Positions 6,557 to 48,261 of a stretch of DNA of 64,000 nt are shown piece by piece. A model generated the notes under the pieces. The model saw only the letters and a list, made by a program, of their open reading frames with translations, made no database searches and was not told the DNA's origin. The position numbers were made by a program, and so were the translations under genes. The stretch is from a virus (Duplodnaviria > Caudoviricetes), in IMG/VR virus record IMGVR_UViG_3300028048_002144; one strand, written 5' to 3'. The stretch's first letter is position 1. The number at the start of each line of letters is the position of its first letter.

Positions 6557-6947
6557 AAAGTGTCCTTCTTTCTAATAAAAACTACTCACATATTTAATAT
6601 GACAGTTCGTGAGTTTATTTCTTATTTATTTACCTATTTCTCTTTTTGTCTCCATATATAATTATGGTAATTCTGGAAATAAATAAGCATAAAGAAACAC
6701 CTAGTCTCATACAAGGCTAGGTGCTGTAATTTATTCATATGATTTAATTAATAATCAAAGGTTCTTTTTCTTCCAGACGCAAATATTCTTTATAATACTC
6801 TCTATCAGACGTAAAACCTTTTTCTACAAAATGATTGACAACTTTTTCAAAAGCATCTTCTTTTGTGTCAGCCTTTACATAACCATCATGTCCTTCGAAA
6901 TAGAAATAAAACATATACAAAACCCCTTTCTATAATTTTCTTTTTAG

Positions 6948-7031
6948 TGGATAGGGTAGGACTTGAACCTACAATGTCAATAAGACGACAGTTTTACAGA
7001 CTGCTGCATTACCAATTCTGCTCATCTATCC
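6948..7031 (-). tRNA. trnY: tRNA-Tyr(GUA)
   Basis: GCAGT-CTGTAAA-ACTGT anticodon arm, long V-arm, GGTTCAAGTCC T-arm. Confidence 0.9.
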
Positions 7032-7051
7032 ATATTCTATTCAATGTCTAT

Positions 7052-7246
7052 TTATTGTAAAAAATACATAATTAAAATTGAAGCTCCAAACAATATAAAA
7101 GCTTTAAGCATAGCTTGTATACTATCAATTTTTCTTTCATCTTTTGTATTTTGATAAGATAAATAAGGAATAAGTCCTTTAAATACAAAATAAACCATTG
7201 AAATTGATGTACCTACTATTGCTGATATAAATAAAATAGTTTTCAT
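7052..7246 (-). CDS. small 2-TM membrane protein
   Basis: 64 aa, GAGG RBS. Confidence 0.6.
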   Translation of the reverse strand: MKTILFISAIVGTSISMVYFVFKGLIPYLSYQNTKDERKIDSIQAMLKAFILFGASILIMYFLQ

Positions 7247-7290
7247 TTTCTTTTCCTCTTTTAATAAGCATTAAGATAAATACATTTAAA

Positions 7291-7379
7291 AGTAGGTGAT
7301 CGGAATCGAACCGATGATCTATAAATAAGACGTACAGTTTTGCAGACTGCCTTCTCGAACCAACAGAGAATTCACCTAC
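7291..7379 (-). tRNA. trnC: tRNA-Cys(GCA) with atypical long variable arm
   Basis: acceptor GTAGGTG/CACCTAC, U73, GCAGT-CTGCAAA-ACTGT, 18-nt variable region. Confidence 0.8.
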
Positions 7380-7557
7380 ATATATAATTATTTTTCTTTG
7401 GTAGTTTGCAATATTGGATATTTGTTCTAGGTTTAGGGCATTGTTCTAATGGTTTCCATTTGAAGCTATCCATTAAATATCCTAGAACACATTGCATTTC
7501 GTATTTGCTACAAGGACTAGATTCAAGTGCTCTACATCCATCACATGATTTTTTCAT
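7372..7557 (-). CDS. small Cys-rich protein
   Basis: 61 aa with CxxC and further Cys; AAGG RBS. Confidence 0.55.
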   Translation of the reverse strand: MKKSCDGCRALESSPCSKYEMQCVLGYLMDSFKWKPLEQCPKPRTNIQYCKLPKKNNYICR

Positions 7558-7559
7558 AA

Positions 7560-7856
7560 TTATCCTTCTTTACTATCTATCCATATAAGTGTAGCTGGAG
7601 CAATTACCAGATAAAATATTGCAATTTTACTAAGAGTTTTCGGTATCAACAAAAAAATTTTCGGAATTAAAAAGAAACACAATAGATCAATAAGATAAAG
7701 TCCTGCTATCATGCGTGGAACAAATCTTTTTGCATGTTCTTCCATTTCATGTTCAGCCTCTCCAATCTTTGTAGTTTTCTCTTCTGGAGAAAGTTCTTCA
7801 TTAGTTATTGTGCTTGTCACTTTTGTTGCAAACTTCATATATTCCTTGAGAAACAT
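7560..7856 (-). CDS. hypothetical membrane protein
   Basis: 98 aa, GGGAG RBS, 2 TM. Confidence 0.65.
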   Translation of the reverse strand: MFLKEYMKFATKVTSTITNEELSPEEKTTKIGEAEHEMEEHAKRFVPRMIAGLYLIDLLCFFLIPKIFLLIPKTLSKIAIFYLVIAPATLIWIDSKEG

Positions 7857-7877
7857 TTCTTTACTCCCTATTAAAAT

Positions 7878-8210
7878 CTACCAGCCTATTGTTAATAAAT
7901 CCAAGCATGTTTCATTATCATGTGTAAATTCTTGATATCCTACTACAATCATTTCCGGATCATAAGAGTCATAGTCTAAAGGATTAATCTTTCCATTTTC
8001 GATTTTAAACACACCACAAAAACCAAACACATTTGACCATCCAGGAATTTTACTTACATCATGTAACTGGATTACAGCATATTTATCCGAAAATAAATCT
8101 GTTTTATCAAACTCAGTTGGCTTTTCTAAAAATGAAAAATCTTTATAGTCATCAGTATTTAATACACGTTGTTTAAGTTTTTCAAAGGTTTCTTTTTCAT
8201 TCATTATCAT
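7878..8210 (-). CDS. hypothetical protein
   Basis: 110 aa, translationally coupled (ATGA overlap). Confidence 0.7.
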   Translation of the reverse strand: MIMNEKETFEKLKQRVLNTDDYKDFSFLEKPTEFDKTDLFSDKYAVIQLHDVSKIPGWSNVFGFCGVFKIENGKINPLDYDSYDPEMIVVGYQEFTHDNETCLDLLTIGW

Positions 8211-8506
8211 GCCTCAAAACAATTTTTATTAGTTTTTGTTTCTGGGTTTTCTGCTAATATTGAATCAAGAATTACTACTCGTGTTCTTTTGGTTTGTTGT
8301 CTAAATTTTTCTAAATCACGATCATCACTAACAAAATATGTATCTGTGTAATTACACTCTAACTCTCTTTTAACAACATCAGAAACAGATTCATATTGCT
8401 GACGTTTTGCGTATCGCAAAAATGCTGCTTTAGCAGCTTCGAAAAAGGGATCTCCTTCTTCTTTTTTAGGCTTAAAAAGATTTTTTATACAAGATAATAC
8501 TTTCAT
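8207..8506 (-). CDS. hypothetical protein
   Basis: 99 aa, AAGGAG RBS. Confidence 0.65.
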   Translation of the reverse strand: MKVLSCIKNLFKPKKEEGDPFFEAAKAAFLRYAKRQQYESVSDVVKRELECNYTDTYFVSDDRDLEKFRQQTKRTRVVILDSILAENPETKTNKNCFEA

Positions 8507-8545
8507 ATTTTCATTCTCCTTATAAATTCAATTATGTTTCTAACA

Positions 8546-8842
8546 TTAATTGTCCTGTAATAATATAATAAGATTTTTCAGAGCTTCTTCTGGAGTATTG
8601 CCTTTACCGATAATATAATCGTTTACATCATGGTCAGGATCATTTCCTTCCCAAAAGTTTTGGCATTCAACATCTCCTGCATCAACAGGAAGTTCAAAAA
8701 ATATATATGATGGAGATAGATTAAACGCAAGAAAGCAAGCTCCCGAATATGCTCCACCATATCTGTCTTCGATAATGCAAAGAGGACATGGTATTTTTAA
8801 ATTTATAAGTTCAGATGATTTCTGGTTTAAATCTTTATTCAT
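8546..8842 (-). CDS. hypothetical phage-like protein
   Basis: true start MNKDL after AAGGAG; the longer track ORF overlaps tRNA-His. Confidence 0.7.
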   Translation of the reverse strand: MNKDLNQKSSELINLKIPCPLCIIEDRYGGAYSGACFLAFNLSPSYIFFELPVDAGDVECQNFWEGNDPDHDVNDYIIGKGNTPEEALKNLIILLQDN

Positions 8843-8865
8843 ATTTTCGTTCTCCTTATAAAAAG

Positions 8866-8951
8866 GGTGAAGGAGGAGACTCGAACTCCCACGAGCATTA
8901 CACTCGGCAGATCCACAATCTGCTGCGTCTTCCAATTTCGCCACCAACACC
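8866..8951 (-). tRNA. trnH: tRNA-His(GUG) with atypical long variable arm
   Basis: G-1:C73, GCAGA-TTGTGGA-TCTGC, V-arm CGAGT-GTAAT-GCTCG; two U:U mismatches in acceptor. Confidence 0.8.
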
Positions 8952-8954
8952 CTA

Positions 8955-9029
8955 TTGCAGAACTGGGAGTCGAACCCAGTATCTCGAGATTATGAGACTC
9001 GAATGGTATATCCGTTCCACTCTTCTGCC
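8955..9029 (-). tRNA. trnM: tRNA-Met(CAU), initiator-like
   Basis: CTCATAA loop, G1:A72 mismatch, A73, GGTTCGACTCC T-arm. Confidence 0.75.
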
Positions 9030-9067
9030 ATGTTATAAAATTATTACAACTAGATTTAGGAAGGTCT

Positions 9068-9138
9068 CTCCCCAGTACAGGACTCGAACCTTGATTTCTT
9101 CGTTTCCAAAGTGTTCTACCGATTGAACTAACCGGGGA
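9068..9138 (-). ncRNA. tRNA-like RNA with GAAA tetraloop replacing the anticodon loop
   Basis: TCCCCGG/CTGGGGA acceptor, G73, normal D-arm, CTTTG-GAAA-CGAAG arm, TTCGAGT T-loop. Confidence 0.65.
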
Positions 9139-9163
9139 TTCGCCTTCCATGTCTAATTGTTTA

Positions 9164-9236
<73 letters not shown>

Positions 9237-9250
9237 CTATTAATAATTAA

Positions 9251-9356
9251 TGTCTACGGTCCGAAAACGCCTCGTCTGCAGCCGATACCTTTTATACTGA
9301 AATAACAGTTTAAGCATGGCCAAAAACTGTGCAAACGTATACACAAGGAATAGACA
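9251..9356 (-). ncRNA. candidate structured RNA between tRNAs
   Basis: nested stems TGTCTA/TAGACA, CGTTTGCA/TGCAGACG, CAGTTT/AAACTG. Confidence 0.4.
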
Positions 9357-9360
9357 GTAG

Positions 9361-9433
9361 TGATTCCTGCGAGAATCGAACTCTGCATCTTAGCCTTGAA
9401 AGGGCTATGTCATAACCATTAGACCAAGGAACC
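9361..9433 (-). tRNA. trnE: tRNA-Glu(UUC)
   Basis: TAGCC-CTTTCAA-GGCTA; one bulge in T-stem. Confidence 0.88.
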
Positions 9434-9543
9434 ATGACTCGTTGTTTAGCTAATTTTTAAGTGGACAACGATAACCACTCGCACTAAATTGTAAAACATA
9501 AAGTTTCATTTAATAATTCAAGTTTAGCCTACTTGTTTATTTG

Positions 9544-10545
9544 TTATCTATCGTCTCCGATATCAAAATCGTCCATAGAATCCGAGATATCTTTTTCCTT
9601 TTTGATATTCGGTTCTGGCTTTTTGTAACATATATCTCCACGTTCTAAATGTATTTCTAAAGCGTGATCCAAAATACGTTCTTTTCTTTCTTGTATCATT
9701 GTCTTATAAAAATTCTTACGAGTATCTGATATGATAGGTGTCTCATCAATGATTTTATTGATTTTATCCATATCAATATTTGGAACGATTTTCGCAATTG
9801 CTCTTACACAATTAATATCATCACTTGAATTAAGCATCTCGTGATAAGTGTATTTTTCTGCATGCTTAATGTCATCTGTTTTTAATAGTGCTGCTTTAGG
9901 AAAATCGTACATTCTTCTATCGATTTCTTCCCTGCTACTTAGAATTTTTTCAAATGCCTTTTCAGCCAATCCAGGATATAAAGAACTACCACAATCATAA
10001 ACAGGTGCTAAACGAATTGTTCGTTCTTGTTCATTAACAAGATATCCCCAGTTCCCCTTATGGCGATCAAAATTGCCAATCAAAGCATCTGCAACAAATG
10101 TATCCCAATACCTAGCTATCGATTCATCTCTAATTACGGATAATAGAGATCGATCTATGGTTCCATATATTTGATTGTATGTTGGTATGCGACCAATCTC
10201 GTTTTTTCTATATACAGTACGCATAAACCAATCGAACTCCTGAAGCTTTTCACCTGGTTGTACAAAGTCTTTACATGCAACAACCGGTTCATCCTCATAC
10301 ACACCTAATAAAGTATCGTGTGTTGGTAATCCCAAAGATCCTACTATATGGCTACCAATGTATTCTGAGAATACGCTGTTTGAGGTGCTTGTTGTCAAAT
10401 CATTAATCTTTTGTTTTTCATCGGCAAATTTAAGCATATAATGTTCGCCATTATAAATGATTGATTTCTTAGAATCTGAACCACCATAATCACGCAAACC
10501 TTGTTGTGCATATGTAAAATCAATGATTTGTTCCATATATACCAC
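9544..10545 (-). CDS. HipA-family Ser/Thr kinase
   Basis: YGGSDSKK loop, YMLKF, SEYIGS, IGNFDRHKGNWG catalytic loop, LAPVYDCGS. Confidence 0.85.
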   Translation of the reverse strand: MVYMEQIIDFTYAQQGLRDYGGSDSKKSIIYNGEHYMLKFADEKQKINDLTTSTSNSVFSEYIGSHIVGSLGLPTHDTLLGVYEDEPVVACKDFVQPGEKLQEFDWFMRTVYRKNEIGRIPTYNQIYGTIDRSLLSVIRDESIARYWDTFVADALIGNFDRHKGNWGYLVNEQERTIRLAPVYDCGSSLYPGLAEKAFEKILSSREEIDRRMYDFPKAALLKTDDIKHAEKYTYHEMLNSSDDINCVRAIAKIVPNIDMDKINKIIDETPIISDTRKNFYKTMIQERKERILDHALEIHLERGDICYKKPEPNIKKEKDISDSMDDFDIGDDR

Positions 10546-10741
10546 CTCTACAGTAATAATCTTTTAAAGCTTCTTGTTGTTCTCGTGTCAAATCGATATC
10601 ATATGAATTAATATCCGAACGAAGATTGTCCATGTAACAATCTGGAAGCTCGCCACCACTGTTTAAATACTCTAACAATTCATCGATATCTCTTTGAATC
10701 AAATACGGAATATTAAAATCGAACTTCTTTGCATAATACAT
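10520..10741 (-). CDS. small acidic protein, putative antitoxin of the HipA-like kinase
   Basis: start MYYAKK after AAAGGAG; overlaps kinase start; own TGnTATACT extended -10 at ~10806-10814. Confidence 0.55.
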   Translation of the reverse strand: MYYAKKFDFNIPYLIQRDIDELLEYLNSGGELPDCYMDNLRSDINSYDIDLTREQQEALKDYYCRGGIYGTNH

Positions 10742-10860
10742 ATATTGTGCTCCTTTTAAATATGTATATCTTTTTATTTGAAACAAAATAACGTTCCATA
10801 TAATTAGTATAACATTATCATTTCTACATTATTTACAAAAATAGATTCGATTTAAAGGAA

Positions 10861-10917
10861 TAGCGATAACCGGATTCGAACCGATACCTTGCAAATGCAC
10901 CATTACACCATATCGCC
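10861..10917 (-). ncRNA. 57-nt mini tRNA-like RNA lacking anticodon arm
   Basis: GGCGATA/TATCGCT acceptor plus A, D-arm GTGT-AATGGT-GCAT, ATCGG-TTCGAAT-CCGGT T-arm; 9 nt between D and T arms. Confidence 0.65.
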
Positions 10918-11144
10918 ATCAGACCGTTTTTAGTCGCCTTTAAAGTTTAATCTCAAAGGATCTCTTGAGTGCGTGATCAAACTCTGTGTCTTTTAATGCC
11001 CTATAGGCTCTGTTCTTTAATGCCCTGTAGGCATGATACTATGATAGGTTTATGGTCTCTTATCCCCGACCTCTCGGATATGTTTAAAGTCTCTAACCCG
11101 ACTAATTTTGAATCGTCCACTAAAGCAGGACCTCTCTAATTTTA

Positions 11145-11489
11145 TCAACTATTTTTAACTAGGATATTCTTCATAAAAATATAGTCATTCAAAAAATCTT
11201 GTATTTTAGCCTTAACCTTTATTGATCCTAGAGTATCTTTCGTTCTATTCATTGTTGAAAATACTAAATCTCTTCTTTTTACATCATCATCAATAAAATA
11301 ACGGGTATCACAATGAAGAGAATTACAAAGTAGTTCTAAATCAAAAGTATTAATTTCTTCGTAAGCAAGTTCATTAGCAATTAGTTTCTTAATTACATCT
11401 TCATCTACAAAAGACTCTTTAGATAAAATAGAACAATCAATATTCAACATATTCATTCTTTTACGCAATTCATTACCAATGTACTTCAT
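11145..11489 (-). CDS. XRE/HTH-like transcriptional regulator
   Basis: IGNELRKRMNMLNIDCSILSKES...LELLCNSLHCDTRYF resembles Cro/XRE fold; AGGAG RBS. Confidence 0.6.
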   Translation of the reverse strand: MKYIGNELRKRMNMLNIDCSILSKESFVDEDVIKKLIANELAYEEINTFDLELLCNSLHCDTRYFIDDDVKRRDLVFSTMNRTKDTLGSIKVKAKIQDFLNDYIFMKNILVKNS

Positions 11490-11538
11490 ACGTAAACTCC
11501 TATTTAACTATGCTTACAAAAGATATCAAAAATATTAT

Positions 11539-11920
11539 TTATCGTGTTTTAGATGATAGAATTTTCATCCAAATCAATCTATATGTATGAATTAAAGACT
11601 CTGTGTATTCTTGCATTTCTTTTAGAATTTTTGGATCTTCAATATGCTTAGGATACCCATATTTTGTTGCATTTAAAAACAAGTGTATCTTAACGTATTT
11701 CTCTCGTATTTTTAATTCTTCCTCAGTCGTATGGTTACCAATATGTATTCCATACTGACCAAACTATTATTTTTAACCAAAACGGAACTTTTTTCATTTC
11801 TTGAATCATTTCTGGGTGATCTATAATATAAATAATTTTACATTTCTCAAGATAAATACGAATAAGAATAAGAATAAGAATTACTATAATTGCTCCAATT
11901 GTAATAATAGTTTCATTCAT
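11539..11920 (-). pseudogene. frameshifted membrane-anchored protein
   Basis: MNETIITIG frame stops at 11735; a second frame (GIHIGNHTTEEELKIREKY...KTR) runs to 11539 without its own start. Confidence 0.4.
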
Positions 11921-11953
11921 TATTGCAATATCTTCCCTTTCTAAAACACTGAG

Positions 11954-12037
11954 CAGGCGTGGAGAGATTCGAACTCTCAGTATCCTTTCGGAGTCATGGT
12001 TTTGGAGACCACTGCTGTTCCGTTGAGCCACACGCCT
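11954..12037 (-). tRNA. trnW: tRNA-Trp(CCA) with atypical long variable arm
   Basis: AGGCGTG/CACGCCT, G73, GTGGT-CTCCAAA-ACCAT, V-arm TCC-GAAA-GGA. Confidence 0.85.
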
Positions 12038-12092
12038 ATAAATAAGTATCAATATTAAGCAATTGTCTAAAATACGAGGTCTCAATACATCA

Positions 12093-12177
12093 GGAGCGTT
12101 GCAGGGAATTGAACCCTAAACTAGTATTTTCCTTCGGCTCAGAACCGCTGTGCTATCCGTTACACCAAACAACGCTC
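12093..12177 (-). ncRNA. atypical tRNA-like RNA (CAGCGGTYCTGA family, copy 1)
   Basis: 8-bp acceptor GAGCGTTG/CAACGCTC, D- and T-arms present, no canonical anticodon arm. Confidence 0.6.
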
Positions 12178-12274
12178 ATATAGGTAATTTAGGCATTTTG
12201 CCAGGGTTTTATGTTGCCAGATGCCTCCATCTTAGCGCAATCTTAAAACCACAACCTATTTACCCACATTTTAA

Positions 12275-12358
12275 CGCAGTATCCAGGACTCGAACCTGGA
12301 AACCATTTCTGGATGCTTGATTAGTAGTCAAGTGCTGTACCAATTGAGCCAATACTGC
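12275..12358 (-). tRNA. trnS: tRNA-Ser(ACU) with long variable arm
   Basis: CTTGA-CTACTAA-TCAAG, V-arm CCA-GAAA-TGG, G73. Confidence 0.75.
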
Positions 12359-12525
12359 ATAATTAATGCAGCTCCTCTTGTCTCGAACCTTTACAGATAG
12401 GAAAGTTAGCTATTCTTTCGTTCGTCTGTTTTCCCCAGATCAAATATGCTGGTCTGTCAGGGGACTCAAGGATACTGCTTTAACTAGGTCGTAATGCCTA
12501 AAATACGAGGTCACAATGCCCCAAG

Positions 12526-12597
12526 CGACTCTACTGGGAATCGAACCCAAATCTTCGGATAGACAGTCCGACATAATAGCCGTTATACCATAGAGCC
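12526..12597 (-). tRNA. trnD: tRNA-Asp(GUC)
   Basis: TCGGA-CTGTCTA-TCCGA, G73. Confidence 0.9.
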
Positions 12598-12859
12598 ATA
12601 GTGCCTACCAATTCACATTATCATACATGGGGGGAGGTTCAAATATGTATGAATATGCTATAAGCTCGGCTTTGCTTCCATTTCAAAAGGAGAATTCTAA
12701 TAATGAAAATAAACGCAGTAAACTATAAACAAAATGAAAGGGGAATACTAAAACAAACACAAAAAAAGTGAATGGTATTTAGTAAACATGCGCTTATTCT
12801 ATTATTAGAGTGCATCTAATGGGATTCGAACCCATACTCTATTGCTAGAAAGGGATTTT

Positions 12860-13545
12860 CGTACCACTATATCTTTCAATACCCATCTGTGTATATGGTT
12901 TGTGGTCTGGAATCAATCTTTGCCCACTACTAAAAGTGTTGGGGCAGGACATGTATATTCTCTACGCACTCACTTAATAGTGATTGGCACGGTATTGCTA
13001 CTAGGAAAAGTTTCACCGTTTAGTGTCCATTCAGCGTAAATATTCCTATTTACCTGCTCATGCTTACCAGAGTAATTCAACTTCTTTTAGTCTGTTTTCC
13101 ATTCGATATAAAAGTTTATAACTATGACTACCTACTTTTCCTGAACATGATTTACTACAAGTTAAATAACGTGTTCTACCACGATTTATATCAACATAAA
13201 ATCTTGTCCATTTATCGCTTTTCATAACAAACTTAGCACCACAAATAATACAGGTTTCAATTGTATCTTTGTATTTTCTAGAATGTTGTTTTTGATGCTC
13301 ACCATGAACTAAAATTTCTAAATTAGATAAATCATTATTATCTGGGTTTTCGTCTTTATGATGAACATCTTCTTCTGGCTTTAATGGCCTGCCTAGCTTC
13401 TTCGCCATTAAAATTCGAGGATATGAAATTACATGTGGTTTGCCATTTTCATCTACACAGTAAGCTCTCCACCTGCCATCCCTGCATTTGTAAGCTTTTT
13501 TAATAAAAAGATCCATATGCTATCCTCTCTAAGGCCTTACTATCT
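12860..13545 (-). mobile_element. group I intron (IC3/trnL-type) carrying a homing endonuclease ORF
   Basis: inserted after U34, terminal G; P-like CTAAACGGTGAAAC, Q-like AATACCGTGCC, R-like GTAGAGAAT, S-like AAGATTGATTCC; P3 GGACA/TGTCC. Confidence 0.85.
13064..13516 (-). CDS. intron-encoded HNH homing endonuclease with C-terminal Zn-finger
   Basis: EEDVHHKDENPDNNDLSNLEIL HNH motif; CIIC...CSKSC; GAGAGG RBS. Confidence 0.85.
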   Translation of the reverse strand: MDLFIKKAYKCRDGRWRAYCVDENGKPHVISYPRILMAKKLGRPLKPEEDVHHKDENPDNNDLSNLEILVHGEHQKQHSRKYKDTIETCIICGAKFVMKSDKWTRFYVDINRGRTRYLTCSKSCSGKVGSHSYKLLYRMENRLKEVELLW

Positions 13546-13831
13546 AAGTCCCTCGTGTCTGCCAGTTCCACCATAGATGCATATTTGTCTACTTAAAGAA
13601 CCATTAGAAATGTAGACTTTATTCTTTTTAATATAAGGATTTATGTTAATCGTACTACCCTATATTTGGAACCTGGTCAAAAATAAATAATAGATCAAAA
13701 TAATAATAATATTGGTTAGTTAACCTTCGTCTCTAATTCTGTTTGTAAATCTTCTTAAACCCATATCATAAGTCTTCCTTTCTGTAGCCTATTTTTTATT
13801 AATAAAATGAGTTTAATGCTTCATTTTTTAA

Positions 13832-13903
13832 CAGCCCATACTGGATTCGAACCAGTGCATCAGGGAGTCAAATTCCCCTGCCTTACCGCTTGGCTAATGA
13901 GCT
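13832..13903 (-). tRNA. trnQ: tRNA-Gln(UUG)
   Basis: GGGGA-ATTTGAC-TCCCT; Gln-type D-arm GCCAAGCGGTAAGGC. Confidence 0.88.
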
Positions 13904-14076
13904 AGATTGTGGGGTTTATCAAACCCCACATGTAAAGATTGAGTTATCTCAAAAAAATAATGAGATAAAGGGTAGGTAGGATTTCTACCATGAAAGAAAG
14001 TATAAAATCAACATTGAGATATCAAAAAGTATCAAAAATATATCTCGAACTATAGTGAAATGGATACTTTTTATAG

Positions 14077-14150
14077 CGGATTCGCCAGGACTCGAACCTG
14101 GGACATCATGATTAACAGTCATGCGTTCTAACCGACTGAACTACGAATCC
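14077..14150 (-). tRNA. trnN: tRNA-Asn(GUU)
   Basis: CATGA-CTGTTAA-TCATG, G73. Confidence 0.92.
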
Positions 14151-14335
14151 ATACAGGAAACATCACTTTGATAAATGACGTTTCCAGGACATCCTTCTAC
14201 AACATGGTAGACGATTATTCGAGGATTTTGATACCGCAGTTCCACAACTGCGTACAACAAACAGAAAGGAAGGTGACGTTACGTGAAGTGCGACCCCTAT
14301 CTGTCTATTGCATTAAATTGTAAGAGACAGAGTGT

Positions 14336-14943
14336 TACATAAACACTCTATAAGAATAACTGCCGAACTCGTTTTACTAACTTCGCTCTATTCTTAATAG
14401 CACCACTATATTCGATCACATGGAAGATACATGCGAACCTAAATTGTACGGGTTTAGGCTATGTACCCTGGCAAGCCATGAAAGGACTGATACCTTTAAC
14501 TTTCACCACCATTCGCATTAAAATAACAGATCCTTATAAATCTTCTGTTTTTAAGATTTTAATGCAAGCATTAGGCTACTCGTACAGACTTCTATTCTTA
14601 TTGGTAAGAATTTCTTCTTACATCTATGCTTTACCTACTTATTTGATTATTCCAACTGCAGTATCCCTTGTTATCACACGCAGGGCTTACAGGGTTCCCT
14701 ACCTATTTCTAGTGGGCTTATTATCGCAGGTGATAGTTTGTCTTATCTTTAGCTTCGTCTATCAAGATATGCCATAACCAACGTTTGAGAGGTTCCTCTC
14801 TTTTATCTCTATTATTACTAATAAAGAAGTGGGCTCTCACATACACTATCGCATATGCTTATCCTTTGATTGCATTATGCCCTAGCAGAGTTGGCGACTC
14901 TTCTGCACTAGGATGGCAATTATTCTTATAGAATGTTTATGTA
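14336..14943 (-). ncRNA. large structured RNA, ROOL-like (~608 nt)
   Basis: 29-bp terminal helix that is perfect (2 G:U) only on the minus strand; many internal hairpins; inside tRNA array; family assignment from size and context only. Confidence 0.6.
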
Positions 14944-14978
14944 TTTTTCAATGTGCATATTAAGCTATTAAAAGCTTA

Positions 14979-15058
14979 GGGGCACCTAGAGAGTCGAACT
15001 CTAACCGGTGTTTTGTCTTTCAGGACCGCTGATGTGCTACCGTTACACTAAAATGCCC
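14979..15058 (-). ncRNA. atypical tRNA-like RNA (CAGCGGTYCTGA family, copy 2)
   Basis: GGGCATT/GGTGCCC acceptor plus C, D-arm GTGT-AACGGTA-GCAC, TCAG-CGGTC-CTGA short arm, TAGAG-TTCGACT-CTCTA T-arm. Confidence 0.6.
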
Positions 15059-15185
15059 ATACTCAATGTTCTATTTAATGTGGGAACAAAGAAGCCACAG
15101 GGTAAAAGAAATGAATGAATTAACAATCCAAGAAATCTTTGATATGAAGTCTTGAAATGATGCTGCCGACAATAACGACAGCAAG

Positions 15186-15259
15186 TGGACCATGTTGGAC
15201 TCGAACCAACGACAGCTCGCTTATGAGGCGAGTGGTCTAACCAACTGACCTAATGGTCC
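15186..15259 (-). tRNA. tRNA(CAU), probably Ile2 (lysidine), else elongator Met
   Basis: GGACCAT/ATGGTCC acceptor, CTCGC-CTCATAA-GCGAG. Confidence 0.85.
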
Positions 15260-15387
15260 ATGCGAGAGACCAAAAATAAACAAGAGAAAGGAGACTGGTC
15301 TCTCTAAAACTATGAAAAAAATATTGATTTATTAAAGCAGAAAGCCCTATGCTCATATAAAACTTACGATAAGACCTTCTGCCTTAA

Positions 15388-15469
15388 TGACCCTGATGGG
15401 ACTCGAACCCACATGAGCTACGCTCGCATGATTAAAAGTCATGTGCCATACCAATTAGGCGACAGAGTC
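15388..15469 (-). tRNA. trnK: tRNA-Lys(UUU) with atypical long variable arm
   Basis: CATGA-CTTTTAA-TCATG, V-arm GAGC-GTA-GCTC, A73. Confidence 0.85.
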
Positions 15470-15552
15470 ATAGTGCAGATATTCTCTGCACTAAAAACGT
15501 ATTTTGAAAGGAGTATATGCAACAGATGATTTTACTTTATCTATCTTGTTGA

Positions 15553-47891: not shown

Positions 47892-48261
47892 CTATTTCTT
47901 AGCAGGATACCTCGATTTTTATAAGTCAAGAATCCCCTACGTCTCCTTTCTGTAAATTACTGATATGTTTATTGCTATAAGCCGGTACATACCAACCGTA
48001 ATGCAGCCTTCGCCAATGTTATTATGAGGTTTTTGTAAGCAACACTGTTCCTACCCATCAGAACTGTTTAATCACTTACCTTAGAGCTACAGACTAGGCT
48101 GTACATCCGTAGGTAACTATACATGACAATGAAACTGCTAATGTTTCATTGTATATTCTCATATAACGTAGTCAGTTAAGACTTAGGCTAGTCAATTAAG
48201 GCTTTTACAAGCCTCCACTTCAATGATTATGAAATAATCGTAAGTGGTGGGTTATTGACAT
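47892..48261 (-). mobile_element. ORF-less IscB-type element with full-length omegaRNA (HEARO-like)
   Basis: GTCAATAACCC...GGCTTG...TTGACTAGCCTAAG...CTACGTT...CCTACGGATG...CCTAGTCTGTAGCTCT...AACATTGGCGAAGG; RBS GAAAGGAG runs straight into right-end hairpin. Confidence 0.8.

What the first reader, a model, noticed from the sequence alone, without database searches (positions are those of the whole stretch)
12093..15058. Two related tRNA-like RNAs sharing a CAGCGGU(U/C)CUGA hairpin and possible pseudoknot
Seen: 12093-12177 and 14979-15058 share the D-arm GTGTAACGG(A)TAGCACA, a short hairpin CAG-CGGT(T/C)-CTG in place of the anticodon arm, and a purine-rich linker. Both have a downstream (A/G)CCG complementary to the loop CGGT and a C after the acceptor stem. 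Their acceptor and T stems differ in sequence yet both pair. Inference: a conserved non-decoding tRNA-mimic family rather than two independent pseudogenes.
Basis: partly seen in the sequence, partly recalled or inferred. Interest (0 to 1): 0.75.

Follow-up and report, generated by a model that had tools for sequence, protein, structure and literature searches.

The report
Two anticodon-defective tRNA-like plasmid genes
Two related genes in a megaplasmid's tRNA/ROOL RNA island keep the upper half of a tRNA but have a scrambled anticodon region; they are rare tRNA-derived RNAs, either processing modules or decaying copies, not a widespread new RNA family.

Summary
The sequence facts hold. Copies A (12093-12177, minus) and B (14979-15058, minus) share the D arm, the 12-mer CAGCGGTYCTGA, an A-rich linker and a C after the acceptor stem. 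Acceptor, D and T stems pair in every sequence, with 3 double compensatory changes between A and B.

The structural reading is weaker. No fold of the middle is shared, the CAG/CUG hairpin is weak, and the pseudoknot is sterically impossible in A.

Both lie in a minus-strand tRNA island of a conjugative-type megaplasmid (a 205-kb contig, likely a rumen Lachnospiraceae host). B sits 42 nt upstream of a ROOL RNA. ARAGORN calls A tRNA-Gln(CUG), but with 3 good anticodon-stem pairs and an unpaired 14-nt variable region. Rfam's tRNA model rejects both.

A has 93-96% identical orthologues on two otherwise unrelated metagenomic mobile-element contigs. B has none. A covariance model found no other member in about 300 Lachnospirales genomes, and pattern scans of IMG/VR and 185,579 species genomes also found none.

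Best reading (0.4): tRNA(CUG)-derived, non-decoding tRNA-shaped RNAs cut out by tRNA-processing enzymes, with B marking the ROOL 5' end. Main rival (0.3): recent pseudogenes. Other first-stage notes covered this same island; none reported it on other DNA.

The parts
12093..12177 (-). Copy A: 85-nt tRNA-like gene. Acceptor stem of 8-9 bp, D arm GUGU/GCAC, T arm (U)AGGG/CCCU(G), C after the acceptor stem.
   Evidence: Sequence. ARAGORN calls tRNA-Gln(CUG), 83 nt, with 3 Watson-Crick pairs plus G.A and A.A in the anticodon stem. No RF00005 hit at the gathering score; best clan hit is tRNA-Sec at 25.4 bits, E=0.18. Model R1 scores it 111.5 bits.
12139..12150 (-). Shared 12-mer CAGCGGTTCTGA in A. 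It carries the CUG that ARAGORN reads as the anticodon.
12120..12125 (-). Hexamer palindrome ACTAGT just 5' of A's T arm. It reads GCTAGC in the L019 orthologue.
   Evidence: A weak lead only.
14979..15058 (-). Copy B: 80-nt tRNA-like gene. Acceptor GGGCAUU(U)/(A)GGUGCCC, the same D arm, T arm UAGAG/CUCUA, C after the acceptor stem, no canonical anticodon arm.
   Evidence: Sequence. Not found by ARAGORN or by Rfam at E<=1. Model R1 scores it 73.9 bits, against <=37.3 bits for ordinary tRNAs.
15020..15031 (-). Shared 12-mer CAGCGGTCCTGA in B. The position matching U33 is C.
15004..15009 (-). ACCGGT in B. It is a palindrome and also the 3' partner of AGCGGU (5 of 6 pairs), closing a 15-nt loop.
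14346..14936 (-). ROOL RNA. Its 5' end lies 42 nt downstream of B's 3' end.
   Evidence: Rfam RF03087, 205.4 bits against a gathering score of 99.1.
12064..12092 (-). 3' trailer of A. It is conserved in L018 and repeated after tRNA-Asp (12495-12517).
   Evidence: repeat family D9; terminator-like call for the Asp copy.
12178..12265 (-). 5' spacer of A, conserved in L019 only.
6947..15470 (-). The surrounding tRNA / tRNA-like island: 13 ARAGORN tRNAs plus other tRNA-like genes.

Best explanation
A and B are two diverged copies of one tRNA-derived gene lineage. It descends from the mobile-element type of tRNA(CUG), which carries the GGUGUAACGG..CAC D arm.

Both copies keep the parts of a tRNA that the processing machinery reads: the acceptor/T-arm stack, the D arm and the elbow nucleotides (GG in the D loop, UUCRA in the T loop). 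Their anticodon/variable region has been remodelled into a weakly structured 30-31 nt segment.

They are most likely co-transcribed with the minus-strand island and excised by RNase P, RNase Z and the CCA-adding enzyme like tRNAs. They then persist as non-decoding tRNA-shaped RNAs.

For B the most concrete role is punctuation: its 3' processing would free the 5' end of the ROOL precursor 42 nt downstream. A may serve as a similar processing or stability module, or as a ligand or decoy for a factor that reads the tRNA upper half and C73.

Shown here: the anatomy, the paralogy, the compensatory stem changes, the genomic context, and the conservation of A on other elements. Inferred: transcription, processing, the lack of decoding, and any role.
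For: 1. Upper half maintained. Pairing is 100% in 17 pairs, with 3 double compensatory changes (positions 2:71 and 5:68, and one T-stem pair) and 2 wobble changes between A and B. The D-loop GG and the T-loop UUCAA/UUCGA are intact.

2. Lower half defective.
- B is not callable as a tRNA.
- A has 3 Watson-Crick anticodon-stem pairs, no position 26, two extra nucleotides in the 8-9 linker, a 13-bp acceptor/T stack and an unpaired ~14-nt variable region.
- A falls below Rfam's tRNA threshold.

3. Shared derived characters. The 12-mer occurs twice against 0 expected. Both have G1-C72 with C73; of the other tRNA genes in the island only tRNA-His has C73. A global alignment puts the A-rich inserts in register.

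4. Canonical relatives exist. An array contig (L107) holds ordinary tRNA-Gln(CUG) and tRNA-Gly(UCC) genes with the same D arm, and its Gln gene has ...CGGATTCTGA....

5. A is kept while its surroundings change.
- The only stretches at 79% identity or more, and longer than 60 nt, that the window shares with L018 and L019 are three non-coding blocks: A, a ~95-nt element, and the short tRNA-like gene. They lie in the same order, with the intervening DNA replaced.
- The flanking ORFs tested have no protein match in the window.
- L018 comes from a phage-like contig with DnaB, YorF and an RNA ligase.

6. Punctuation is plausible. RNase P measures the acceptor/T stack and clamps the elbow, not the anticodon arm (PMC4919913). 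In another ROOL locus (G140) a normal tRNA-Lys abuts the ROOL 5' end. ROOL RNAs are reported near tRNAs, possibly co-transcribed (PMC5737381).

7. [quoted passage not shown]
Against:
- The lineage is very rare. B is known only from this plasmid, and A only from near-identical copies, so there is no deep conservation and no covariation in the middle region.
- The compensatory stem changes could date from a time when both copies were still working tRNAs.
- The island visibly decays elsewhere: the 57-nt tRNA-like gene at 10861-10917 is a 13-nt direct-repeat deletion of a Met-like gene that is intact in L018.
- A is flanked on both sides by normal tRNAs (ACU 96 nt upstream, Trp 55 nt downstream), so it is not needed as punctuation.
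- One of the two other ROOL loci examined (G040) has no tRNA upstream.
- The conserved flanks of A fit recent recombination as well as they fit selection.
Confidence: 0.4

Rival explanations
1. A and B are non-functional relics: two paralogous tRNA(CUG) genes of a fast-rearranging mobile-element tRNA island whose anticodon regions were hit by indels recently. The intact upper halves simply have not had time to decay.
For: - The family is extremely rare: 0 hits in the species-genome pattern scan, 0 true hits in IMG/VR, nothing at or above 40 bits in about 300 Lachnospirales genomes, and nothing by BLAST in 401 genomes.
- No fold of the middle is conserved or stable.
- The substitutions in L019 cluster in the middle region.
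- The same island contains a clear deletion derivative of a tRNA gene and other broken tRNA-like genes.
- tRNA arrays with pseudogenes are documented (PMC4758250).
Against: - Damage in both copies is confined to the same region, while 17 stem pairs stay perfect.
- A and B share aberrant characters, which suggests the common ancestor was already aberrant. Yet the stems were kept through about 30% sequence divergence.
- A is one of only three blocks retained between otherwise unrelated elements.
Confidence: 0.3
2. A is still a working, if odd, decoder of CAG, and B is a dead or repurposed copy. A presents a 7-nt loop UUCUGAG on a short stem. Like the island's Cys, His, Trp and Lys tRNAs, it carries extra nucleotides in the variable region.
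For: - ARAGORN calls tRNA-Gln(CUG) at default settings, in the window and in both orthologues.
- The loop has U33, C34-U35-G36 and A37.
- CAG (228) outnumbers CAA (162) in 40 long ORFs of the window, although A-ending codons dominate for Glu and Lys. The island otherwise carries only tRNA-Gln(UUG).
- A's GCCGAAGGA...UACU resembles the variable arm CUCCGAAAGGAUACU of the neighbouring tRNA-Trp.
Against: - A is below Rfam's tRNA gathering score.
- Only 3 Watson-Crick pairs in the anticodon stem, position 26 missing, extra linker nucleotides, a 13-bp acceptor/T stack and an unpaired long variable region.
- The acceptor end, G1-C72 with C73, is unlike tRNA-Gln. The window's Gln(UUG) and the L107 Gln(CUG) have a weak first pair and G73. 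GlnRS and GatCAB identity rules are from established knowledge.
- A CUG isoacceptor is atypical in an island otherwise made of U34 and G34 tRNAs.
Confidence: 0.12
3. One reading: a dedicated non-decoding tRNA mimic in which the hairpin CAG-CGGUY-CUG and a loop-to-(A/G)CCG pseudoknot replace the anticodon arm, possibly charged by HisRS through C73.
For: - All the sequence elements are present in both copies.
- A terminal G:C pair followed by C-C-U matches the end of the island's genuine tRNA-His (g-1...C73-C74-uuu).
- In B the loop lengths would allow the knot.
Against: - In A the knot leaves a 1-nt connector across a ~7-bp stack, and stem 1 competes with the D stem (sequence; energies).
- No homologues are available to test covariation.
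- The anticodon is not GUG and the D arm is unlike the island's tRNA-His.
Confidence: 0.06

Closest known systems
Mobile-element array tRNA-Gln(CUG) and tRNA-Gly(UCC) with the D arm GGUGUAACGGNNNNCAC (for example locus L107, a 2.5-kb 8-tRNA contig of a Lachnospiraceae genome)
   Same: The same D arm and flanking UUU/A. The Gln gene has ...CGGAUUCUGA..., matching A's ...CGGUUCUGA.... These are the best canonical hits of model R1, at 33-37 bits.
   Different: They are 71-73 nt long with 5-bp anticodon stems, 4-6-nt variable loops and 7/5 stacks, and Gln has G73. A and B have the remodelled middle, G1-C72/C73 and 80-85 nt.
Pseudo-tRNA tRNA-Other of Bacillus cereus (PMC3399842)
   Same: [quoted passage not shown]
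   Different: No sequence relation. tRNA-Other has experimental phenotypes and mapped transcripts; A and B have none.
tRNA genes and pseudogenes of plasmid and chromosomal tRNA arrays (PMC4758250 and the cyanobacterial arrays cited there)
   Same: A dense array, plasmid-borne, acquired horizontally, holding canonical genes and pseudogenes and shaped by rearrangement, deletion and duplication.
   Different: Here two paralogues share the same aberrant middle. The array also holds a ROOL RNA and several other anticodon-less tRNA-like genes.
tRNA-linked ROOL and GOLLD loci (PMC5737381; bioRxiv 10.1101/2024.12.08.627333)
   Same: A ROOL RNA in a mobile element next to tRNAs, possibly co-transcribed. 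In G140 a tRNA-Lys abuts the ROOL 5' end.
   Different: In the window the gene directly 5' of ROOL is the non-decoding copy B rather than a normal tRNA. No paper read here describes such a neighbour.
tRNA-like processing signals and stable RNAs such as mascRNA at the MALAT1 3' end and the species 1/2 stable RNAs of the phage T4 tRNA cluster (from my own knowledge, not checked here)
   Same: Non-decoding RNAs with an acceptor/T-arm mimic that RNase P and RNase Z cut, marking the ends of neighbouring RNAs.
   Different: No homology. Processing of A and B is untested.

Membership tests
Canonical elongator tRNA (Rfam RF00005) | Score at or above the family's gathering threshold (29 bits) | tested here: not met
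   Neither A nor B is among the 14 RF00005 hits. With the lax search, A's best clan hit is tRNA-Sec at 25.4 bits (E=0.18) and B has no hit at E<=1.
Canonical elongator tRNA (Rfam RF00005) | Acceptor, D and T arms, with the elbow nucleotides G18 G19 and U54 U55 C56 A58 | tested here: met
   All 17 modelled pairs form in all 4 sequences. The D loops are AACGG(A)UA and the T loops UUCAAUU and UUCGACU.
Canonical elongator tRNA (Rfam RF00005) | A 5-bp anticodon stem, a 7-nt loop with U33, and a 4-5-nt or paired variable region | tested here: not met
   A has 3 Watson-Crick pairs plus G.A and A.A, and an unpaired ~14-nt variable region. B has no such arm, and the position matching U33 is C.
tRNA-Gln(CUG) | CUG at positions 34-36 of an anticodon loop | tested here: inconclusive
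   ARAGORN places CUG at the anticodon position in A and in its orthologues, but not in B.
tRNA-Gln(CUG) | Gln-type acceptor end: a weak 1:72 pair and G73 (identity rules from established knowledge) | tested here: not met
   A and B have G1-C72 and C73. The window's Gln(UUG) and the L107 Gln(CUG) have A/U at 1:72 and G73.
tRNA-His | G-1:C73 at the end of an 8-bp acceptor stem | tested here: inconclusive
   Both genes can be read as a terminal G:C pair followed by C and then U, like the island's tRNA-His. The real 5' end is unknown.
tRNA-His | Anticodon GUG | tested here: not met
tRNA-Sec (RF01852) | A 13-bp acceptor/T stack, a 6-bp D stem, a UCA anticodon, a paired long variable arm, and a score of at least 47 bits | tested here: not met
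   A has a 13-bp stack (9/4 or 8/5), but a 4-bp D stem, CUG and an unpaired variable region, and it scores 25.4 bits.
allo-tRNA (8/4 or 9/3 cloverleaf with a long paired variable arm; from my own knowledge) | A 12-bp stack split 8/4 or 9/3, plus a helical variable arm | tested here: not met
   B can be drawn as 8/4, but neither copy has a paired variable arm.
   Found: A-type copies in L018=L131 and L019=L132 at 93-96% identity. The same plasmid was also found at 99.99% identity in two samples. Not found: any other member in the genome contigs pattern scan, IMG/VR, 151+151 genomes searched with the covariance model, 401 genomes by BLAST, 1.37 Mb of held loci or PLSDB.
H-type pseudoknot | Both stems can form at once, with connecting loops long enough | tested here: not met
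   In A, stem 1 needs C25 of the D stem and the third connector is 1 nt (A37). This follows from the sequence, the energies and a geometric inference.

The most novel reading that the evidence does not exclude
A and B are founding members of a dedicated class of non-decoding tRNA-shaped RNAs that belongs to ROOL-type RNA islands of mobile elements. Anticodon-less tRNA-like genes recur in these islands: four more in this window, one in the G140 ROOL locus, and a double-T-arm element in L018 and L019. They could act as partners or cargo of the ROOL nanocage, as decoys for tRNA-targeting factors, or, if charged through G-1/C73, as a His-accepting CUG tRNA that recodes CAG. A hexamer palindrome before the T arm (ACUAGU, GCUAGC, ACCGGU) could let them dimerise.
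Probability: 0.1. Interest if true: 0.75.

Novelty: new variant of a known kind. Interest (0 to 1): 0.4.

Why it matters
The function of ROOL RNAs is unknown even though their structures have been solved. Their constant company is a tRNA island.

If the anticodon-defective, tRNA-shaped genes in such islands are maintained rather than decaying, they give a concrete, testable handle on how the islands are processed, through tRNA-type punctuation of ROOL precursors. They would also show which tRNA-binding factors mobile elements manipulate.

If they are only pseudogenes, the result still matters for annotation: ARAGORN's 'tRNA-Gln(CUG)' call for A should not be taken as a working isoacceptor.

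Tried and rejected
- **Motif scan of IMG/VR:** 17 hits, all inside unrelated sequence, so chance. Two more IMG/VR scans with the T-arm/acceptor words of A and of B gave 0 hits.
- **D-arm plus motif pattern in 185,579 species genomes:** 0 hits.
- **PLSDB and phage BLAST with A, B, ROOL and the 3.4-kb region:** only ordinary tRNA matches, or nothing.
- **Reaching related islands through the island's HipA-like kinase:** 79 genome loci and 6 contigs, none with A/B-like genes or similar arrays. The closest relative (95% HipA, GCA_024712465.1) has gene gaps that suggest the same island, but its DNA was not retrievable.
- **The RNase T-like neighbour:** one 95% homologue, on a 1.5-kb contig.
- **Exact-protein look-ups with the HNH gene and the 116-aa ORF:** these only returned the same plasmid (99.99% identity) from two samples.
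- **ROOL searches:** 2 of 151 Lachnospiraceae genomes carry ROOL. Three larger ROOL searches failed on the server.
- **Complementarity of the middle regions or the 12-mer to ROOL or the rest of the island:** no better than shuffles.
- **Palindrome as a dimerisation site:** kept only as a lead. Hexamer palindromes occur in 10 of the 17 tRNA(-like) genes of the island. The L019 A-to-G change also repairs a mismatch in an alternative extended arm (9 of 9 pairs in L019, 7 of 9 in the window), so the two readings compete.
- **ARAGORN with the intron option or lowered thresholds:** B then gets only an implausible fold with a 6-nt loop and no anticodon.
Full report
**What is at the coordinates**

Both features lie on the minus strand. 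Copy A (12177 to 12093, 85 nt) and copy B (15058 to 14979, 80 nt) share several elements:
- the D arm GUGU-AACGG(A)UA-GCAC;
- the word CAGCGGU(U/C)CUGA;
- an A-rich stretch;
- a T arm with a standard UUCRA loop;
- a C after the acceptor stem.

The combined motif TAGCA(0-4 nt)CAGCGGTYCTGA occurs twice in the window, against 0.00 expected from shuffles. On an alignment of A, its two orthologues and B, all 17 acceptor, D and T pairs form in every sequence. Three pairs changed on both sides between A and B and two changed by wobble. Pairing drops to 35-61% when the partners are slid. The sequence observation is therefore real.

**What the standard tools call them**

- ARAGORN calls A tRNA-Gln(CUG), 83 nt. 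The anticodon stem has three Watson-Crick pairs plus G.A and A.A, and the ~14-nt variable region is unpaired.
- ARAGORN does not call B, even with the intron option. With lowered thresholds it produces only an anticodon-less fold.
- Rfam's tRNA model finds 14 tRNAs in the window, but neither A nor B.
- In the lax Rfam search A's best hit is tRNA-Sec at 25.4 bits (E=0.18), and B has none.

A also has a 13-bp acceptor/T stack (9/4 or 8/5), extra nucleotides between the acceptor and D stems, and no position 26. B can be drawn as 7/5 or 8/4.

**The proposed hairpin and pseudoknot**

In A the CAG/CUG hairpin must take C25 from the D stem, and it evaluates about 7 kcal/mol worse than the alternative CGGU/GCCG hairpin. 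If both helices formed together, the single nucleotide A37 would have to span the stacked helices. I infer that this is sterically impossible.

In B the alternatives are a 4-bp UCAG/CUGA hairpin or a 4-5-bp CGGU/ACCG helix closing a 15-nt loop. Each is worth only about 3 kcal/mol. Neither whole molecule folds better than shuffles. No fold of the middle region is common to A and B.

**Context**

The window carries a Rep3-type initiator, a type IV coupling protein and a NERD nuclease. The nearest Rep in PLSDB is from a Butyrivibrio fibrisolvens rumen plasmid, at 36% identity. Exact-protein look-ups returned the same DNA at 99.99% identity on a 205-kb metagenomic contig and on a 37-kb Logan contig. 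This is therefore a megaplasmid-sized element seen in two samples.

A and B sit in an 8.5-kb minus-strand RNA island (6947-15470). The island holds:
- 13 ARAGORN tRNAs, several of them (Cys, His, Trp, Lys and an ACU tRNA) with long variable arms;
- four further defective tRNA-like genes;
- small ORFs, an HNH endonuclease gene and a HipA-like kinase gene;
- a ROOL RNA at 14936 to 14346, scoring 205 bits.

B ends 42 nt before ROOL begins. A lies between the ACU tRNA (96 nt upstream) and tRNA-Trp (55 nt downstream). None of the genes encodes CCA, and most 5' ends follow ..AU|G, as do those of A and B.

**Relatives**

One metagenome scan found two A-type copies. L018 is identical to L131. L019 is identical to L132. 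Both are 93-96% identical to A.

The window shares only three non-coding blocks with these contigs, in the same order:
- A with part of its flanks;
- a ~95-nt hairpin-rich element (11043-11142);
- the short tRNA-like gene (10858-10996).

The DNA between the blocks is replaced. The flanking ORFs tested have no protein match in the window. L018 belongs to a 34-kb phage-like contig with DnaB, YorF, a RecD2-like helicase, an RNA ligase and a KTI12-like kinase, and there is no room there for ROOL or B.

I built covariance model R1 from the four sequences. It scores A-types at 108-112 bits, B at 74 bits and ordinary tRNAs at 37 bits or less. It found no further member in:
- 151 Lachnospiraceae genomes;
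- 151 genomes of the same order;
- 1.37 Mb of fetched loci.

BLAST of the A block found nothing in 401 genomes. Pattern scans of 185,579 species genomes and of IMG/VR were also empty, as was PLSDB. B is known only from this plasmid.

**Ancestry**

The best canonical matches to R1 are array-type tRNAs with the same D arm. One 2.5-kb array contig (L107) holds a normal tRNA-Gln(CUG) reading ...GGTGTAACGGCAACACACCGGATTCTGAC... and a tRNA-Gly(UCC). A and B therefore most likely descend from a mobile-element tRNA(CUG).

They differ from tRNA-Gln in having G1-C72 and C73. In the island only tRNA-His shares C73.

A's GCCGAAGGA..UACU resembles the GAAA-capped variable arm of the neighbouring tRNA-Trp. 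This suggests A lost the 3' strand of its anticodon stem from a long-arm scaffold. B keeps a distant ACCG partner but has a loop expanded by about 8-10 nt. A global alignment puts the two A-rich inserts in register, with a 4-nt GCCG indel between the copies.

**Variation in the orthologues**

L019 differs from A at four positions, three of them in the middle region.
- Two changes (A49U and A53G) turn mismatches into pairs in an alternative extended arm (positions 29-37 with 45-55). That arm has 9 of 9 pairs in L019 and 7 of 9 in the window.
- A53G together with U58C also keeps a hexamer palindrome: ACUAGU becomes GCUAGC. B has ACCGGU one nucleotide offset.

Hexamer palindromes are common in these genes, occurring in 10 of 17. 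The two readings also compete for the same change. I therefore record both only as leads.

**Weighing the explanations**

For a maintained, non-decoding tRNA-shaped RNA:
- damage is confined to the same region in both copies while every stem pair is kept;
- the shared aberrant characters imply an aberrant common ancestor, yet pairing was kept through about 30% divergence;
- A is one of the few blocks retained between unrelated elements;
- other anticodon-less tRNA-like genes occur in this island and in the G140 ROOL locus.

RNase P reads the acceptor/T stack and the elbow, not the anticodon arm (PMC4919913). In G140 a normal tRNA-Lys abuts the ROOL 5' end. B as a processing mark for ROOL is thus a concrete and testable role. 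tRNA-Other of B. cereus is a precedent for a recruited pseudo-tRNA (PMC3399842).

For decay:
- the lineage is rare;
- the middle has no conserved structure;
- there are no expression data;
- the short tRNA-like gene at 10861-10917 is demonstrably a 13-nt direct-repeat (TGCAAG) deletion of a Met-like gene that is intact in L018;
- A's flanks are conserved too, which fits recent exchange.

For A as a decoder:
- the canonical-looking loop UUCUGAG;
- CAG (228) is commoner than CAA (162) in the window's long ORFs, although GAA and AAA dominate their pairs.

The many structural defects and the non-Gln acceptor end argue against the decoder reading.

**Verdict**

I rate:
- maintained non-decoding tRNA-like RNAs, with B as ROOL punctuation: 0.40;
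- recent pseudogenes: 0.30;
- A as a working CAG decoder: 0.12;
- the specific pseudoknot/HisRS model: 0.06.

This is a rare variant of a known kind, namely pseudo-tRNA or tRNA-like genes in mobile-element tRNA arrays. It is of moderate interest, mainly because of its position next to ROOL and the recurrence of such genes in these islands.

Noticed in passing
window 14346-14936 (-): ROOL RNA (RF03087, 205 bits, full-length model) inside the tRNA island, flanked by copy B (5', 42 nt away) and tRNA-Asn (3', 195 nt away).
   Followed up: partly
window 47998-48259 (-): HEARO RNA (RF02033, 128.6 bits), the RNA that accompanies IS605-family HNH/TnpB-type elements.
   Followed up: no
window 7291-7379, 8865-8950, 11953-12037, 12274-12359, 15387-15470 (all -): tRNAs with Cys, His, Trp, ACU and Lys anticodons carry base-paired long variable arms, several capped by GAAA. 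These isoacceptors are normally short-arm (class I) tRNAs. The ACU anticodon is itself unusual.
   Followed up: partly
window 9069-9137 and 8955-9029 (-): A tRNA-like gene whose anticodon stem is capped by a GAAA tetraloop, so it has no anticodon. Next to it is a CAU tRNA with a 9-nt loop, or a loop closed by U.U. Both score about 39.5 bits with Rfam tRNA.
   Followed up: no
window 10861-10917 (-); L018 5632-5704; L019 683-740: The 57-nt tRNA-like gene lacking an anticodon arm is a 13-nt deletion between TGCAAG direct repeats, relative to the 73-nt Met-like (CAU) gene in L018. The short form is shared by the window and L019, with stem-preserving changes.
   Followed up: yes
window 12808-12971 (-): An element of about 165 nt closed by an acceptor-like stem (GAGUGCGU/AUGCACUC), with a standard T arm (AUGGG-UUCGAAU-CCCAU) at its 3' side. 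It may be a large-bodied tRNA-like RNA. It lies just downstream of the HNH endonuclease gene.
   Followed up: partly
L018 6632-6761 (-); L019 1319-1448 (-): A 130-nt element closed by an 8-bp acceptor-like stem that contains two T-arm hairpins (GCGG-UUCGAGU-CCGC and UAGG-UUCRAUU-CCUA). It lies next to the A orthologue in both contigs and is absent from the window.
   Followed up: no
window 11043-11142 (-); L018 6049-6150; L019 1061-1153: A non-coding block of about 95 nt, conserved at 88-91% identity, with predicted hairpins and one compensated pair. It is one of only three blocks shared by the three islands and is a candidate small RNA.
   Followed up: partly
window 12064-12086 and 12495-12517: A 23-nt repeat (91% identical) forms the 3' trailer of both copy A and tRNA-Asp. 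The Asp copy is flagged as terminator-like.
   Followed up: no
window 9544-10545 (-): A HipA-like kinase gene (Pfam HipA_C, E=1e-11) with a small upstream ORF, embedded in the tRNA island. Homologues are common in Lachnospiraceae but are not linked to tRNA arrays elsewhere.
   Followed up: partly
L105 (G140:C1) 9558-9624 and 8952-9058 (+): In another ROOL locus, a 67-nt tRNA-like gene has a 9-bp acceptor stem and a GUG..CAC D arm, with only GCAUUGAAAUAG in place of the anticodon arm. There is also a 107-nt tRNA-like gene. A tRNA-Lys(UUU) overlaps the ROOL model start by 9 nt.
   Followed up: partly
L108 (G132:C106) 1501-1573: A tRNA with anticodon CUA (an amber reader, labelled Pyl by ARAGORN) carries the same GGUGUAAUGGCUAGCACA D arm as A and B.
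   Followed up: no
contig behind L018 (GCA_016852305.1, 34 kb): An RNA ligase (PF09414) and a KTI12/AAA_33 kinase lie a few kb from that element's tRNA island. This is an RNA-repair-like pair, as seen in phages that counter anticodon nucleases.
   Followed up: no
window, 40 ORFs of at least 150 aa: CAG (228) exceeds CAA (162), although A-ending codons dominate for Glu (870 against 228) and Lys (872 against 518).
   Followed up: no
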